A DNA stretch of 64,000 bases. Source: a virus (Duplodnaviria > Caudoviricetes). This document shows, piece after piece, positions 22,801-48,152 of this stretch (position 1 is its first letter; each line of letters starts with the position of its first letter). The DNA is taken from the IMG/VR virus record IMGVR_UViG_3300027255_000165; one strand, 5' to 3'. The notes below the pieces were generated by a model that did not search any database, was not told where the DNA came from, and saw nothing but the letters and a program-made list of their open reading frames with translations. The position numbers were made by a program, and so were the translations under genes.

Positions 22801-22994
22801 TTTCTTTTAGTTGAAAACTTTGGTGTTAAGACCCAAAGAGCAACGTAAGTTATGATTGCTCCCGGAGGGAATAGTAATCCTGAAAGAACAAACGCTGCTC
22901 TTACTAGGATTGGATCTGTATTAAAATAAAATCCAAGACCTTGACAAACACCTGCGATGCTGCCTTTTTCTGGATTCCTTAGTAACTTTTTCAT
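22797..22994 (-). CDS. pspC: PspC-domain protein
   Basis: IAGVC.GLG.YF..DP.LVR..FV......G...Y..LW...P. Confidence 0.88.
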   Translation of the reverse strand: MKKLLRNPEKGSIAGVCQGLGFYFNTDPILVRAAFVLSGLLFPPGAIITYVALWVLTPKFSTKRK

Positions 22995-45259: not shown

Positions 45260-46966
45260 TTATTGAATATACTTGTAAATTCTAAGTTCAACAGTAGCTC
45301 CGGCAGCGTTAAGTGAAGTCTCAACACCTGCAACAATTGGACCTGTAAGAGCTGCATGCCTCGTAGGGTCAATAGAATAATTACCAGCGACAATTTCACC
45401 ATCTGCAATCGTTTCAAAATACTTCCCACCGTAACCGGTAAAATACACCGAGTAAGGTACTATGTTCTTAGAACCGTCAAATTGGTGATTAACTCCAGTG
45501 AATTTAATGTATCCTCCCGGTGCAATGCTTAACCATTCAGCTTGAACAGCTCCAGGAATATCACCGACACCCGCTGCTTTATAGGTACCTGCGCCGGATC
45601 CAGGCATAATACCTTTAATGCTTATGTCAGTGTGGTTGTGTACAATCAGAGTGTGAGGGCCTGTTCCTACGTTAACTTCAGTATATGTTGTAGGGAAATA
45701 AGATCCTGCAACTGAACCCGCAGGTGGCATTGGATCTGGTAGAGTAGTTGGTCTGTATACATTTACAAGTGTAACGTCAAAATGCGCAGGCGATGTAATC
45801 GCAATTCCGCCAGTGGCATTGCCAAGTGTGAATAGATTATTTCCAGAAACTGCTGAAATAAAGCTTATGTTGTTTTGTGCTCTGTTAGTTGATGCATAAA
45901 TCCATTTACCTGACGCATTTGCAAGCTCCAAGTTCATAGTGAATTTGTTAATATCGCTCAAAGGTACGTCAGTTAGAGTAACTGAATGACCAGGTCTAAT
46001 TGGAAGCCATGGAGCCGCAGTATTGCCGTTTCCCAAAGGAGTACCGCTAGGAACGCCATAAGACGCTAACCATGCCTTACCAGCTCCTGATCCAATCGCA
46101 GCATCTTCAATCCACACCTTTACAATAGGTTCAGTTGCTGATGCGTTAGTGATTGTAAGAGAGTGTCCACCCGCTGCACCCAAAGAATATGTAGGTTCTA
46201 CAGGAGCTGTTTGGAACTTAAGTGTTGTAGGAAGAGATGTATTAAGTACACCTGACGCTTCAACCACAACTAACATAGGATTGTAGCCCTGTCCAGTGCC
46301 TCCACCTGTAAGACTTAAATTAGTGTGCCAGATATCTCTGGCTATCCAACATACTGCATAATCACCAGAAGGCTGTTCAAGTCTAACAATATCGCCAGCT
46401 CTTAGATCAGCAAATGCAGCTGTAGCTGCGTTTTTAGTAAAAAAGATGCTAAATGAGTTAACCCCATTCACAGCTGGATAAGCCATAGTAGCCCATATGT
46501 TAGAGACCAGATCATTAGTTGAAGCTGTGAATCCACCGTCAGACCATGGTCTGAATTCTACTGTGTTGTCCCATCCTGCAGGACCTGGAGCAACAGCTGC
46601 AGCCCATGAAGAATAAAGACCAGCTGCGGTTTCAGCCCATACTTTTGCGGCAACAACGTCAGAGAAAAGAGGTTGACCAAGTCTACCTGCAAAGTGATTA
46701 ATCATTTCAAGAACTTTAGCATCACCTGCTCCGCCGTCTGACCAGAACATCGGGTGAGCATCGGCTTCGTTCGTGTAACCTAGTGTGAAAGAATCCGACC
46801 AAATTGTCGTTTCACCTGAAATTTCAGCAGGTGGCATAGCACCTTTGCCTAGAGCAAGTTCGGCTGGCATTGCACCCGTTCCGTCCCACTCGTAAAGTTT
46901 GTTTGCTTTAGCGTTAACGCTGCCTAGACCTGGATTAGAAGATCTAAAATATAATGGATTTGGCAT
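45260..46966 (-). CDS. 568-aa Gly/Ala/Thr-rich beta-type protein (putative virion structural/adhesin) with internal domain duplication
   Basis: GATATATA promoter upstream; segments G.HSLTITN...WL.I.PG.SV...V and G.HTLIVHN...WL.I.PGG.I...V repeat. Confidence 0.7.
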   Translation of the reverse strand: MPNPLYFRSSNPGLGSVNAKANKLYEWDGTGAMPAELALGKGAMPPAEISGETTIWSDSFTLGYTNEADAHPMFWSDGGAGDAKVLEMINHFAGRLGQPLFSDVVAAKVWAETAAGLYSSWAAAVAPGPAGWDNTVEFRPWSDGGFTASTNDLVSNIWATMAYPAVNGVNSFSIFFTKNAATAAFADLRAGDIVRLEQPSGDYAVCWIARDIWHTNLSLTGGGTGQGYNPMLVVVEASGVLNTSLPTTLKFQTAPVEPTYSLGAAGGHSLTITNASATEPIVKVWIEDAAIGSGAGKAWLASYGVPSGTPLGNGNTAAPWLPIRPGHSVTLTDVPLSDINKFTMNLELANASGKWIYASTNRAQNNISFISAVSGNNLFTLGNATGGIAITSPAHFDVTLVNVYRPTTLPDPMPPAGSVAGSYFPTTYTEVNVGTGPHTLIVHNHTDISIKGIMPGSGAGTYKAAGVGDIPGAVQAEWLSIAPGGYIKFTGVNHQFDGSKNIVPYSVYFTGYGGKYFETIADGEIVAGNYSIDPTRHAALTGPIVAGVETSLNAAGATVELRIYKYIQ

Positions 46967-47195: not shown

Positions 47196-47201
47196 ATTTA
47201 C

Positions 47202-47430
47202 ATTAACACTAGTAACCGGGATTCTGTTTTATTCCACCATTAATCTAAGCCACTACCTTGCCCAGGCTGCTCACCCCTATGGACTATTACGTGTTGCATC
47301 CTCGGTGGTATAACGGTTATAACCTTTCCAAAACTCTGTTTTTTTACTAGTTTTGGAAAGGTTATAACCTTCCACCTTAAGCAGTGATGTCCCGAGTTTC
47401 CTCTCTTTCGAGCGATGGATCAGTGTTAAT
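47202..47430 (-). ncRNA. rnpB: RNase P RNA (type A-like, ~229 nt, S-domain replaced by a 21-bp hairpin)
   Basis: P4 strands GAGGAAACTCGGGAC and AACAGAATCCCGGTTAC; P1 ATTAACACT/AGTGTTAAT; P2 TCCATC/GGTGGA; P3 CTC-GAAA-GAG; P5 CATC/GATG; P6 CTGCT/AGCAG; P7 GGTGG/CCACC; P15 CAC/GTG with AGGTA. Confidence 0.85.
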
Positions 47431-47433
47431 TAT

Positions 47434-47787: not shown

Positions 47788-47794
47788 ATGTTAG

Positions 47795-47867
47795 TGGACT
47801 CGGGCAGAATCGAACTGCCGACACATGGATTTTCAGTCCATTGCTCTACCAACTGAGCTACGAGTCC
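47795..47867 (-). tRNA. tRNA-Phe(GAA)
   Basis: GGACTCG/CGAGTCC; loop CTGAAAA. Confidence 0.95.
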
Positions 47868-47871
47868 ATGG

Positions 47872-47990
47872 GGAAGAGGCTCTGGGTCTTTCAGGGTTTC
47901 TGATAGATGATTTGTTTACGCTCTGATTACTCCAAACCCTTTTTCACCATTTTAACACCATCATCTATTACAGCTTGCACTGCCTCTTCC
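47872..47990 (-). ncRNA. Candidate ~120-nt structured RNA between tRNA-Tyr and tRNA-Phe
   Basis: Closing helix GGAAGAGGC/GCCTCTTCC, inner helix ATAGATGAT/ATCATCTAT, complementary AGGGTTT/AAACCCT. Confidence 0.6.
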
Positions 47991-47993
47991 TTG

Positions 47994-48075
47994 TGGGAGT
48001 AGAAGGACTCGAACCTCCGATGTCGTTAGACGATTGATTTACAGTCAACTGCAATAGCCACTATGCGATACTCCC
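47994..48075 (-). tRNA. tRNA-Tyr(GTA)
   Basis: GGGAGTA/TACTCCC; loop CTGTAAA; long variable arm. Confidence 0.94.
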
Positions 48076-48079
48076 ATTG

Positions 48080-48152
48080 TGATCCCTCCGGGGCTAGAAC
48101 CCGGGACCCGTACATTAAAAGTGTACTGCTCTACCAACTGAGCTAAAGAATC
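48080..48152 (-). tRNA. tRNA-Lys(TTT)
   Basis: GATTCTT/AGGGATC; loop CTTTTAA; T-loop TTCTAG variant. Confidence 0.92.

What the first reader, a model, noticed from the sequence alone, without database searches (positions are those of the whole stretch)
47872..47990. tRNA-sized slot occupied by a non-tRNA rod with bubble and possible pseudoknot
Seen: spaced 3-4 nt from tRNA-Tyr and tRNA-Phe like an array member, with two 9-bp helices, an asymmetric internal bubble, and AGGGTTT in the apical region complementary to AAACCCT in the bubble. Flanking tRNA processing would excise it cleanly. Established: 6S RNAs are bubble-containing rods, and short Flavobacterial 6S RNAs exist. Inference: a 6S-like RNAP decoy or a new ncRNA class.
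Basis: partly seen in the sequence, partly recalled or inferred. Interest (0 to 1): 0.6.

Follow-up and report, generated by a model that had tools for sequence, protein, structure and literature searches.

The report
Conserved knotted RNA in phage tRNA-array
The 119-base stretch between two tRNA genes of this large marine phage is a real, strongly conserved folded RNA gene: it belongs to a family of at least 99 distinct versions found almost only in phages, is missing from the RNA catalogue Rfam, is not a 6S RNA, and has no known job.

Summary
On the minus strand at 47872-47990, between tRNA-Tyr and tRNA-Phe, lies a 119-nt rod with two 9-bp helices, an asymmetric bubble, and an apical-loop AGGGUUU complementary to AAACCCU in the bubble.

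It is not a lone oddity. Pattern scans and a covariance model recovered 99 distinct relatives in phage contigs and two groups of cultured phages (Pseudomonas phage Milchi, Flavobacterium phage immuto).
- There is one copy per genome, and 57 of 99 abut a same-strand tRNA.
- Across the family 97.7% of cells pair and 23 of 28 pairs show compensating changes.
- The loop-bubble pairing itself covaries (GGGUUU/AAACCC, AGGUUU/AAACCU, GGGUUA/UAACCC).
- Circularly permuted stand-alone forms exist.

The family matches no Rfam model, 6S, tRNA and RNase P included. It is essentially absent from 185,579 cellular genomes, and its carriers share no detectable protein.

The 6S reading is not supported; "new ncRNA class" is supported. 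Function is unknown. My best guess is a trans-acting RNA cut out by tRNA-processing enzymes. The loop-bubble pairing may be intermolecular, because rod length varies about twofold while the loop linkers stay fixed.

This scan met the same family before on other DNA (e1-5366136, e1-5366148, e1-5755828, e1-5761762), with the same verdict.

The parts
47993..48075 (-). tRNA-Tyr (GUA), upstream neighbour. Its discriminator A is at 47994, followed by CAA and then the element.
   Evidence: ARAGORN; Rfam RF00005 57.6 bits
47982..47990 (-). P1 5' strand, GGAAGAGGC (purine-rich, as in most members)
   Evidence: All nine P1 pairs covary across the family. There are 56 distinct P1 sequences.
47974..47981 (-). 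J1/2, AGUGCAAG: the 5' part of the conserved block (A)GUG(C)AAGCUGUAAU
   Evidence: conserved block in alignments A2-A4
47954..47973 (-). 5' strands of P2a (CUG 47973-47971), P2b (AUAGAUGAU 47968-47960) and P2c (UGUU 47957-47954)
   Evidence: P2a covaries as CUG/CAG, CAG/CUG and CUU/AAG.
47946..47949 (-). P3 5' strand, UGGU
   Evidence: all four P3 pairs covary
47928..47945 (-). L3, the 18-nt apical loop GAAAAAGGGUUUGGAGUA. AGGGUUU (47940-47934) is the 5' strand of the loop-bubble pairing.
   Evidence: L3 is 18 nt in 94 of 99 members, with a 5-nt and a 6-nt linker. Covariation of the pairing.
47900..47927 (-). 3' strands of P3 (AUCA 47927-47924), P2c (AACA 47916-47913), P2b (AUCAUCUAU 47911-47903) and P2a (CAG 47902-47900)
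47881..47899 (-). 3' strand of the bubble: AAACCCU (47899-47893, partner of L3), then GAAAGACC (47892-47885), present in all 99 members though part of both search patterns, then CAGA
47872..47880 (-). P1 3' strand, GCCUCUUCC
47868..47871 (-). 4-nt trailer CCAU before tRNA-Phe. The CCA is not conserved in relatives (their trailers are U/A-rich), so it is probably chance.
47794..47867 (-). tRNA-Phe (GAA), downstream neighbour. RNase P cleavage at its 5' end would create the element's 3' end (inference).

Best explanation
SHOWN: The element is a gene for a non-coding, non-decoding structured RNA and a typical member of a large, uncatalogued, phage-restricted RNA family.
- Architecture: a closing helix P1 made by the two ends; an asymmetric bubble carrying invariant blocks (5' AGUGAAGCUGUAAU-like, 3' CAG-AAACCCU-GAAAGACC); and a rod of P2 and P3 with a variable middle part.
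- The rod ends in an 18-nt loop, GAAAA-AGGGUUU-NNAGUA, whose AGGGUUU pairs with the bubble's AAACCCU.
- There is no promoter or terminator next to it, so in this phage it is co-transcribed with tRNA-Lys, Tyr, Phe and Met.

INFERRED: The enzymes that mature the neighbouring tRNAs release it as a 119-126-nt stable RNA. The 3'-end maturation nuclease of tRNA-Tyr would act on its 5' side, and RNase P cutting at tRNA-Phe +1 on its 3' side.
- It then acts in trans. Unrelated carrier phages share no protein, and the invariant nucleotides are kept across phages of hosts from different phyla. Its partner is therefore most likely a conserved host component, or the RNA itself.
- The rod between bubble and loop varies from 45 to 81 enclosed nucleotides while the loop linkers stay at 5 and 6 nt. 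I therefore think the loop-bubble pairing is at least as likely to be intermolecular as to be an internal pseudoknot.
- What the particle does in infection is unknown.
For: - Family and structure: one pattern matched 105 stretches in viral contigs, against roughly 6 expected by my own rough estimate. A second pattern that leaves the pairing letters free gave 93 stretches. In all there are 99 distinct members with a P1 helix.
- Covariation in 13 close relatives: 97% of cells paired, 14 pairs with double changes, 0 of 500 shuffles as high, slid controls 39-51%.
- Covariation in 99 members: 97.7% paired, 23 of 28 pairs with double changes, 601 doubly changed cells, 0 of 500 shuffles, slid controls 37-50%.
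- Loop-bubble pairing covaries: GGGUUU/AAACCC 17, AGGUUU/AAACCU 16, GGGUUA/UAACCC 15, AGGUUA/UAACCU 6, and AGGAUU/AAUCCU, UGGUUU/AAACCA and GGGUUC/GAACCC once each. This pairing was not part of the covariance model, so the alignment is not fitted to it.
- tRNA-slot context: 57 of 99 members abut a same-strand tRNA within 10 nt, 21 on both sides. Gaps are 0-5 nt upstream and 3-6 nt downstream.
- No promoter or terminator flanks the window element.
- One copy per record in 19 of 20 whole virus records.
- Phage-restricted: only 1 true member (a 606-nt contig in a MAG) in 185,579 species genomes.
- No shared protein among five carrier phages of 47-171 kb and 31-50% GC.
- Stand-alone and permuted copies exist, with their own sigma-70-like promoter (L065) or a likely terminator (L119), next to DNA polymerase genes and without tRNAs.
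- Constant linkers against a variable rod.
- Precedents: the pRNA ring forms by base pairing of two interlocking loops, with paired 5'/3' ends (PMC2582624). ROOL and GOLLD are phage RNAs near tRNA islands that form RNA-only assemblies (PMC12286853).
Against: - No expression, processing or binding data exist for any member.
- The release mechanism is inferred from general tRNA-processing knowledge.
- The cis-versus-trans argument is a back-of-envelope steric estimate. Internal loops could fold the rod back on itself, and covariation cannot tell the two apart.
- The nested helices in the 99-member alignment were aligned to the model, which favours them. The 13-member MAFFT alignment and the pairing outside the model do not have this bias.
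- Both search patterns demanded some invariant blocks, so 'invariance' of GAAAGACC and of parts of L3 is partly by selection.
- The absence of a shared protein rests on BLASTP at 1e-4 among five genomes, which misses remote homologues.
Confidence: 0.55

Rival explanations
1. A new class of small ribozyme, self-cleaving or otherwise, sitting in tRNA arrays. For example, it could help separate or trim neighbouring tRNAs, as HDV-like theta ribozymes do at phage tRNA 3' ends.
For: - The family shows traits typical of small ribozymes: invariant junction nucleotides, a long-range loop-internal-loop pairing, optional helices at three sites, natural circular permutation, and no partner protein.
- Its distribution mirrors that of theta ribozymes, of which 58% are tRNA-associated and the rest isolated, nearly all in Caudoviricetes and almost none in bacteria (PMC10879173).
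- A faint twister-P3 hit was seen: 15.3 bits, E 1.1.
Against: - No known ribozyme model matches. The twister hit is far below its 39.9-bit cut-off, and nothing is found at E <= 10 for a permuted member.
- The nested P1 > P2 > P3 topology is not the HDV-like fold, in which P1 and P2 cross.
- Gaps to the tRNAs vary (0-5 and 3-10 nt), so it cannot define exact tRNA ends.
- Copies without any tRNA nearby exist.
- No cleavage site can be named.
Confidence: 0.15
2. A small-molecule-binding aptamer expressed at tRNA-like levels, acting as a sponge or sensor for a metabolite or a defence signalling nucleotide.
For: - The conservation pattern resembles a riboswitch aptamer: invariant junctions, variable helices and a pseudoknot.
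- The family is phage-only and portable, with no protein partner.
- Some permuted copies lie 40-70 nt upstream of an ORF.
Against: - No Rfam riboswitch matches.
- A 9-bp P1 and a position between tRNAs leave no expression platform.
- Downstream genes of the stand-alone copies are unrelated.
- From my own knowledge, circular permutation is unusual for riboswitch aptamers.
Confidence: 0.1
3. A cis-acting element of the tRNA precursor with no role after excision, such as a folding insulator or a processing or stability module.
For: The element is always on the tRNA strand with tRNA-like spacing, and 48 of 99 members have a tRNA starting 3-10 nt after P1.
Against: - 23 of 99 loci have no tRNA at all.
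- Stand-alone permuted copies have their own promoter or terminator.
- About 35 invariant nucleotides and a covarying tertiary pairing are far more than an insulator hairpin needs.
Confidence: 0.1
4. A 6S-like decoy of RNA polymerase holoenzyme.
For: It is a rod with an internal bubble and is highly expressed as part of a stable-RNA operon.
Against: - No 6S or 6S-Flavo match at E <= 10.
- It is 90-132 nt long.
- The bubble is strongly asymmetric, and its 3' strand pairs with the apical loop.
- The bubble sequence is invariant across phages of hosts from different phyla, whereas the 6S bubble is conserved in shape rather than sequence (established knowledge).
Confidence: 0.03
5. A decayed tRNA or other junk spacer that happens to fold.
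For: It occupies a tRNA slot, and the single-sequence z-score is only -2.26.
Against: - There are 99 distinct relatives with compensating changes in every helix.
- There is no cloverleaf, T-arm or anticodon arm.
- The same RNA occurs in unrelated phages and in non-tRNA contexts.
Confidence: 0.01

Closest known systems
Phage T4 small stable RNAs rnaC (species 1, 139 nt) and rnaD (species 2, 119 nt)
   Same: They are non-tRNA RNAs encoded inside a phage tRNA cluster on the tRNA strand, a few nt from the neighbouring tRNA. They are of similar size, and the T4 record annotates them only as small, stable RNAs; no function is known for them (my own knowledge).
   Different: There is no sequence or structure homology. 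The family model finds nothing in the T4 tRNA region at E <= 1, and the T4 sequences lack the family's blocks. rnaC carries a tRNA-type T-arm and this RNA does not.
phi29 packaging RNA (pRNA, Rfam RF00044)
   Same: It is a phage RNA of about 120 nt whose 5' and 3' ends pair in a helix. From my own knowledge, engineered circularly permuted pRNAs remain active, and the wild-type loops read AACC/GGUU.
   Different: No match to the pRNA model. pRNA is confined to phi29-like Bacillus phages and works with their connector and ATPase. This family sits in unrelated phages that share no protein, mostly in tRNA arrays. Intermolecular pairing is only inferred here.
Theta ribozymes (minimal HDV-like ribozymes next to phage tRNAs)
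   Same: They are small structured RNAs abutting phage tRNA genes. About half are tRNA-associated and the rest isolated, and they are almost confined to Caudoviricetes (PMC10879173).
   Different: Theta ribozymes have the HDV double-pseudoknot fold, with the cleavage site within 1 nt of the tRNA 3' end. This RNA has nested helices plus one loop-bubble pairing, variable gaps to the tRNAs, and no demonstrated catalysis.
ROOL and GOLLD RNAs
   Same: They are phage or prophage RNAs of unknown function, often near tRNA islands, with no protein partner. They self-assemble through RNA-RNA contacts (PMC12286853).
   Different: They are much larger (GOLLD often exceeds 800 nt), are catalogued in Rfam, and also occur in bacterial prophages. 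This RNA is 90-132 nt, uncatalogued, and absent from cellular genomes.
6S RNA (RF00013, 6S-Flavo RF01685)
   Same: It is a rod-like stable RNA with an internal bubble.
   Different: See the membership test: no model match, the wrong size, and a bubble strand that is base-paired to the loop.

Membership tests
6S RNA / 6S-Flavo | Match to the family covariance models (RF00013, RF01685) | tested here: not met
   cmscan of the element alone at E <= 10 gives no 6S hit. There is none in the window at gathering score, and none for ten relatives at E <= 1.
6S RNA / 6S-Flavo | Rod of about 180 nt with a large central bubble left single-stranded as an open-promoter mimic | tested here: not met
   The RNA is 119 nt here and 89-132 nt across the family. 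The 3' bubble strand pairs with the apical loop, with covariation.
6S RNA / 6S-Flavo | Binds RNA polymerase holoenzyme and templates product RNA | not testable with these tools
   Needs biochemistry.
tRNA | Cloverleaf with anticodon and T arms | tested here: not met
   ARAGORN finds nothing in the slot, even with intron, low-score and mitochondrial settings. There is no RF00005 hit there.
Uncatalogued phage loop-bubble pseudoknot RNA family (this report) | P1 formed by the two ends; 5' block RGUGAAGCUGUAAU; loop GAAAA-RGGUUN-NNAGUA; 3' block CAG-NAACCY-UGAAAGACC; loop-bubble complementarity | tested here: met
   The window element has all blocks. It scores 140 bits with model R1, though it was one of the 13 seed sequences. 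Independent members found by pattern alone share the architecture.
T4 rnaC / rnaD | Sequence and structure homology to the T4 RNAs | tested here: not met
   Model R1 finds nothing in T4 69000-75000 at E <= 1. The T4 sequences were read directly.
T4 rnaC / rnaD | Non-tRNA stable RNA encoded within a phage tRNA cluster on the same strand | tested here: met
Bacterial RNase P RNA specificity domain, supplied in trans to the phage's mini RNase P RNA | Similarity to the S-domain of RF00010, and co-occurrence with S-domain-less phage RNase P RNAs | tested here: not met
   No RF00010 hit on the element at E <= 10. Of 50 whole virus records (48 carrying the family, 2 chance hits), 0 have an RF00010 match, while the window's own genome scores E 2.6e-14 with the same tool.
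Twister ribozyme | Match to the twister models with the conserved core | tested here: not met
   Twister-P3 scores 15.3 bits against a 39.9-bit cut-off, E 1.1. It is not seen in ten other members.
HDV-like / theta ribozyme | Nested double pseudoknot in which P1 and P2 cross, with the cleavage site at the 5' end of P1 | tested here: not met
   Covariation supports nested P1 > P2 > P3. No HDV-type Rfam hit.
phi29 pRNA | Match to RF00044 | tested here: not met
   No hit at E <= 10.
phi29 pRNA | Complementary loops that pair between molecules to build dimers or rings | not testable with these tools
   Complementarity and covariation are shown. Cis versus trans cannot be told from sequence.
5S rRNA | Match to RF00001; three-way junction | tested here: not met
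   No hit for standard or permuted members. The fold is an unbranched rod.

The most novel reading that the evidence does not exclude
The covarying loop-bubble pairing is intermolecular. Such RNAs would be made in bulk from tRNA operons and would act on a conserved host machine without any phage protein.
Probability: 0.3. Interest if true: 0.8.

Novelty: new variant of a known kind. Interest (0 to 1): 0.65.

Why it matters
Phage tRNA clusters have been known since T4 to hide small stable RNAs with no known function.

This element belongs to a much larger family that is strongly constrained. About 35 nucleotides are near-invariant across phages that share no protein, and the family occurs only in viruses.

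That pattern usually marks an RNA that docks on universal cell machinery, binds a ligand, catalyses a reaction or self-assembles. The family offers a clean consensus, natural circular permutations, and two groups of cultured carrier phages (Flavobacterium phage immuto; Pseudomonas phages Milchi and Astolliot). The question 'what are the non-tRNA RNAs in phage tRNA arrays for?' can therefore be tested directly.

It also corrects annotation. In phage immuto a 33-aa 'hypothetical protein' is called on the opposite strand across this RNA.

Tried and rejected
1. RNase P specificity domain supplied in trans to the phage's S-domain-less RNase P RNA (47431-47197). By eye, motifs resembled the E. coli M1 S-domain. 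However, RF00010 does not hit the element, and 0 of 50 whole records tested (48 of them carriers) have any RF00010 match.

2. 5S rRNA-like RNA. It shares short motifs (AGUGAAGC/AGUUAAGC, CCGAA) and is about 120 nt with paired ends. There is no RF00001 hit, including for a permuted member, and no three-way junction.

3. Mimic of the 23S peptidyl-transferase ring. GAAAGACCC equals 23S 2057-2065 and GGGUUUAGA equals 2581-2589. But k-mer matches to E. coli rRNA are scattered: twelve 9-mers, many of them overlapping, against about 4 expected. nhmmer finds nothing, and block-wise shuffle tests were mostly not significant.

4. Twister or another known ribozyme: 15 bits only.

5. tRNA with an intron, or a decayed tRNA.

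6. MITE or repeat: a single copy in the 170-kb record.

7. Encoded CCA as a tRNA-like 3' end: not conserved in relatives.

8. Close relatives of the phage itself.
- The neighbouring 568-aa protein has no relative in viral contigs.
- Exact 20-mer and 17-mer scans were empty or gave chance hits.
- blastn of the element against cultured phages found nothing.
- The first relative (L023) was found through a scan for the identical tRNA-Tyr 3' end.

9. A conserved partner protein: none by all-against-all BLASTP of five carrier genomes.

The metagenome scan was not used.

Full report
**Setting.** The window is the minus strand of bases 104841-168840 of a 170,561-bp IMG/VR virus record estimated to be 70% complete. 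Many glycosyltransferases and a CHU_C type IX secretion domain point to a large phage of a Bacteroidota host. Eleven tRNA genes lie on the minus strand. The local order is:
- tRNA-Cys, a 64-aa ORF, then tRNA-Lys and tRNA-Tyr
- the element
- tRNA-Phe, tRNA-Met and a 67-aa ORF
- a 235-nt RNase P RNA that lacks the specificity domain (47431-47197; RF00010 46.2 bits, E 1.6e-13), then tRNA-His

**The observation.**
- A 9-bp terminal helix, GGAAGAGGC/GCCUCUUCC (47990-47982 with 47880-47872).
- A second 9-bp helix, AUAGAUGAU/AUCAUCUAU (47968-47960 with 47911-47903).
- A 13-nt by 22-nt bubble between the two helices.
- AGGGUUU (47940-47934) in the apical loop, complementary to AAACCCU (47899-47893) in the bubble.

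The spacing to the tRNAs is 2-3 nt upstream and 4 nt downstream. The single-sequence fold is only mildly unusual (z = -2.26). There is no tRNA in the slot under any ARAGORN setting, no ORF, and no promoter or terminator beside it.

**Finding relatives.** The phage has no close relatives in the collections. A scan for the exact 3' end of its tRNA-Tyr brought in contig L023. There, a 119-nt element directly after tRNA-His shares three sequence blocks with ours. Its outer helix has a completely different sequence that still pairs.

Two patterns built from the shared blocks recovered many more copies in viral contigs:
- AAGGGTT-N20-50-ACCCTGAAAGACC matched 105 stretches, against roughly 6 expected by my own rough estimate.
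- A second pattern that leaves the loop and bubble pairing letters free matched 93 stretches.

After removing duplicates and two coding-like chance hits, there are 99 distinct members with a detectable P1.

Cultured carriers are Pseudomonas phages Milchi and Astolliot and the Flavobacterium phage immuto isolates.
- In Milchi the covariance model scores the copy at 53 bits. The locus is unannotated in both Pseudomonas phages; Astolliot was matched by blastn only.
- In immuto the copy carries an extra hairpin between ACCCUG and CUGAAAGACC. A 33-aa CDS is annotated across it on the opposite strand.

**Structure.** In a MAFFT alignment of 13 window-like members I imposed P1, P2a, P2b, P2c, P3 and the loop-bubble pairing. 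The result was 97.0% of cells paired and 14 pairs with changes on both sides. None of 500 shuffles scored as high, and slid controls gave 39-51%.

A covariance model built from that alignment aligned 99 members. On that alignment:
- 97.7% of cells pair and 23 of 28 pairs have double changes, in 601 cells.
- None of 500 shuffles reaches this, and slid controls give 37-50%.
- All nine P1 pairs, all five proximal P2b pairs and all four P3 pairs covary.
- P2a shows CUG/CAG, CAG/CUG and CUU/AAG.

The nested helices in this alignment are fitted to the model. The loop-bubble pairing was not in the model, and it still covaries at three of its seven positions. Seen as haplotypes, the counts are:
- GGGUUU/AAACCC 17
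- AGGUUU/AAACCU 16
- GGGUUA/UAACCC 15
- AGGUUA/UAACCU 6
- AGGAUU/AAUCCU, UGGUUU/AAACCA and GGGUUC/GAACCC, one each

Frequent G-U pairs fix the strand as the tRNA strand.

**Variants.** Type a (81 members) has the 5' block AGUGAAGCUGUAAU, the 3' block GACC-CGAA, and a P1 whose 5' strand is 84% purine, with 56 different P1 sequences. Type b (18 members) has P1 UUACCAAU/GUUGGUAA and often opens a tRNA array. Short forms of about 90 nt have a single apical hairpin, and long forms reach 132 nt.

Several copies are circularly permuted (L065, L069, L081, L105, L126, L129). In these, P1 is replaced by a short loop or hairpin, and the ends open next to the apical loop. In L081 the new ends are closed by a new 8-bp helix.

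These permuted copies are not next to tRNAs. They lie in replication-gene regions, for example after DNA polymerase A or B genes. L065 has a TTGACA-17-TATAAT promoter placed to start the RNA. L119, which is not permuted and has no tRNA nearby, is followed by a likely terminator. The RNA is therefore an autonomous module, and the tRNA array is one way of expressing it.

**Distribution.**
- 76 of 99 loci contain tRNAs.
- 57 members abut a same-strand tRNA within 10 nt, 21 of them on both sides. Upstream gaps are mostly 2 nt and downstream gaps 3-6 nt. The neighbouring tRNAs are of many identities.
- There is one copy per record in 19 of 20 whole virus records; the twentieth holds a permuted copy that scores below threshold.
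- In 185,579 cellular species genomes the strict pattern finds nothing. The loose pattern gives 27 hits against about 34 expected by chance. Only one of these, a 606-nt contig in a Bacteroidia MAG, is a true member by the model.
- Five carrier phages (47, 66, 93, 166 and 171 kb; GC 31-50%) share no protein family at BLASTP 1e-4. The RNA is therefore far better conserved than anything else they encode, and it has no obvious phage-encoded partner.

**What it is not.**
- No Rfam 15 family matches it. The element alone was scanned at E <= 10, ten other members at E <= 1 and a permuted member at E <= 10. That excludes 6S, 6S-Flavo, tRNA-like families, pRNA, 5S, RNase P and the known ribozymes and riboswitches.
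- T4 rnaC and rnaD are not members.
- It is not the missing specificity domain of the phage's mini RNase P RNA. None of 50 whole records tested, 48 of them carriers, has any RNase P RNA.
- Short identities to 5S rRNA and to the 23S peptidyl-transferase ring are at chance level.
- I found no paper describing the family.

**How it probably works.** What is shown is that this is a conserved, compactly folded, non-coding RNA, co-transcribed here with four tRNAs. The rest is inferred.

The nucleases that mature the flanking tRNAs would release it with only a few extra nucleotides. These are RNase Z or RNase E plus exonucleases at the 3' end of tRNA-Tyr, and RNase P at the 5' end of tRNA-Phe. Both roles are established knowledge of bacterial tRNA processing.

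Its roughly 35 near-invariant nucleotides sit in the bubble strands and the apical loop, and carrier phages share no protein. It therefore most likely works on a conserved host component or as an RNA-only particle.

One structural point bears on mechanism. The number of nucleotides enclosed between the bubble and the apical loop ranges from 45 to 81. Yet the loop is 18 nt in 94 of 99 members, with a 5-nt linker before the pairing strand in all 99 and a 6-nt linker after it in 97. The bubble strand of the pairing follows the P2a strand with no spacer.
- An internal pseudoknot would need 5-6-nt linkers to span a rod of about 12 to more than 20 bp, or the rod would have to fold back on itself.
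- Pairing between two antiparallel copies, or round a ring, fits any rod length.

That is how phi29 pRNA assembles (PMC2582624). RNA-only assemblies of phage RNAs encoded near tRNA islands are now documented for ROOL and GOLLD (PMC12286853). I rate the intermolecular reading at about 0.3-0.45. It is an inference from geometry, not a result.

**Rivals.** A new small ribozyme is the strongest rival. Theta ribozymes set a precedent for ribozymes abutting phage tRNAs, and they have the same distribution pattern (PMC10879173). Against it, the fold differs and no cleavage site can be named. A ligand-binding aptamer, a purely cis-acting precursor element, a 6S-like decoy and a decayed tRNA are progressively less likely, for the reasons given under rival explanations.

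**Relation to earlier notes of this scan.** The same family was met before on other DNA. They reached the same verdict: a new family, not 6S, with T4 rnaC/rnaD as the closest analogue. I reached it independently before reading them.

This report adds several points:
- the covariation of the loop-bubble pairing
- the near-absence from cellular genomes
- single-copy status
- the lack of any shared protein
- the lack of a link to phage RNase P RNAs
- the linker-versus-rod argument for intermolecular pairing

Note e1-5368323 (mini RNase P RNA at 47203-47429) was checked and confirmed.

**Limits.** There are no expression data. The search patterns fix some of the 'invariant' blocks.

Noticed in passing
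window 47197-47431 (-): A 235-nt RNase P RNA lies between the 67-aa ORF and tRNA-His. It has the full catalytic domain but a hairpin in place of the specificity domain. RF00010 scores 46.2 bits, E 1.6e-13, below the 100-bit cut-off, so it is invisible at gathering score.
   Followed up: partly
L023:7286-7372 (+): Directly after the family member in contig IMGVR_UViG_3300016710_000060 lies a tRNA-like gene of about 87 nt. It has a 7-bp acceptor-type helix (GGAAGUU/GACUUCC) and a canonical T-arm (GUGUUUCGAAUACAC). Neither ARAGORN nor Rfam tRNA calls it.
   Followed up: no
L147:2519-2620 (MW353175.1 20131-20232, Flavobacterium phage immuto): The annotated 33-aa 'hypothetical protein' immuto26A_31 lies on the strand opposite to a type-b family member and is probably a spurious call. 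This member also carries an extra hairpin inserted between ACCCUG and CUGAAAGACC.
   Followed up: partly
L148:2350-2436 (PQ464597.1, Pseudomonas phage Milchi): An unannotated tRNA-like sequence with a T-arm (GGUUCGAUUCCUACC) and an encoded CCA sits immediately upstream of the unannotated family member at L148:2438-2537.
   Followed up: no
family-wide; window 47982-47990: The 5' strand of P1 is 84% purine and the 3' strand 84% pyrimidine in 81 type-a members, despite 56 different sequences. Many read like Shine-Dalgarno/anti-Shine-Dalgarno pairs, for example AGGAGGGGU and AAGGAGAGGU paired with CCUCUCC-type strands followed by a U/A-rich tail. This is unexplained.
   Followed up: partly
window 47885-47893 and 47934-47942: GAAAGACCC is identical to E. 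coli 23S rRNA 2057-2065 (the A2058 macrolide/Erm site). In many relatives GGGUUUAGA equals 23S 2581-2589 (the U2585 strand). k-mer statistics put these matches at about chance level, but both fall in the peptidyl-transferase ring.
   Followed up: yes
window 47991-47994, 48076-48080, and relatives: tRNA 3' ends in these arrays lack an encoded CCA. The discriminator A is very often followed by CAA (ACAA), both before the RNA and between ordinary tRNAs. This may be a shared 3'-processing signal.
   Followed up: no
window 22836-22902 (+): A weak second hit of the family model (19.4 bits, E 0.2), probably chance.
   Followed up: no
window 45260-46966 (-): The 568-aa protein inside the tRNA region has no Pfam or PHROG match. 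Its N-terminal 110 residues or so are 66-73% identical to the N-termini of otherwise different 400-540-aa metagenomic proteins (P0004, P0006-P0008). This suggests a modular protein with a conserved anchor domain.
   Followed up: partly
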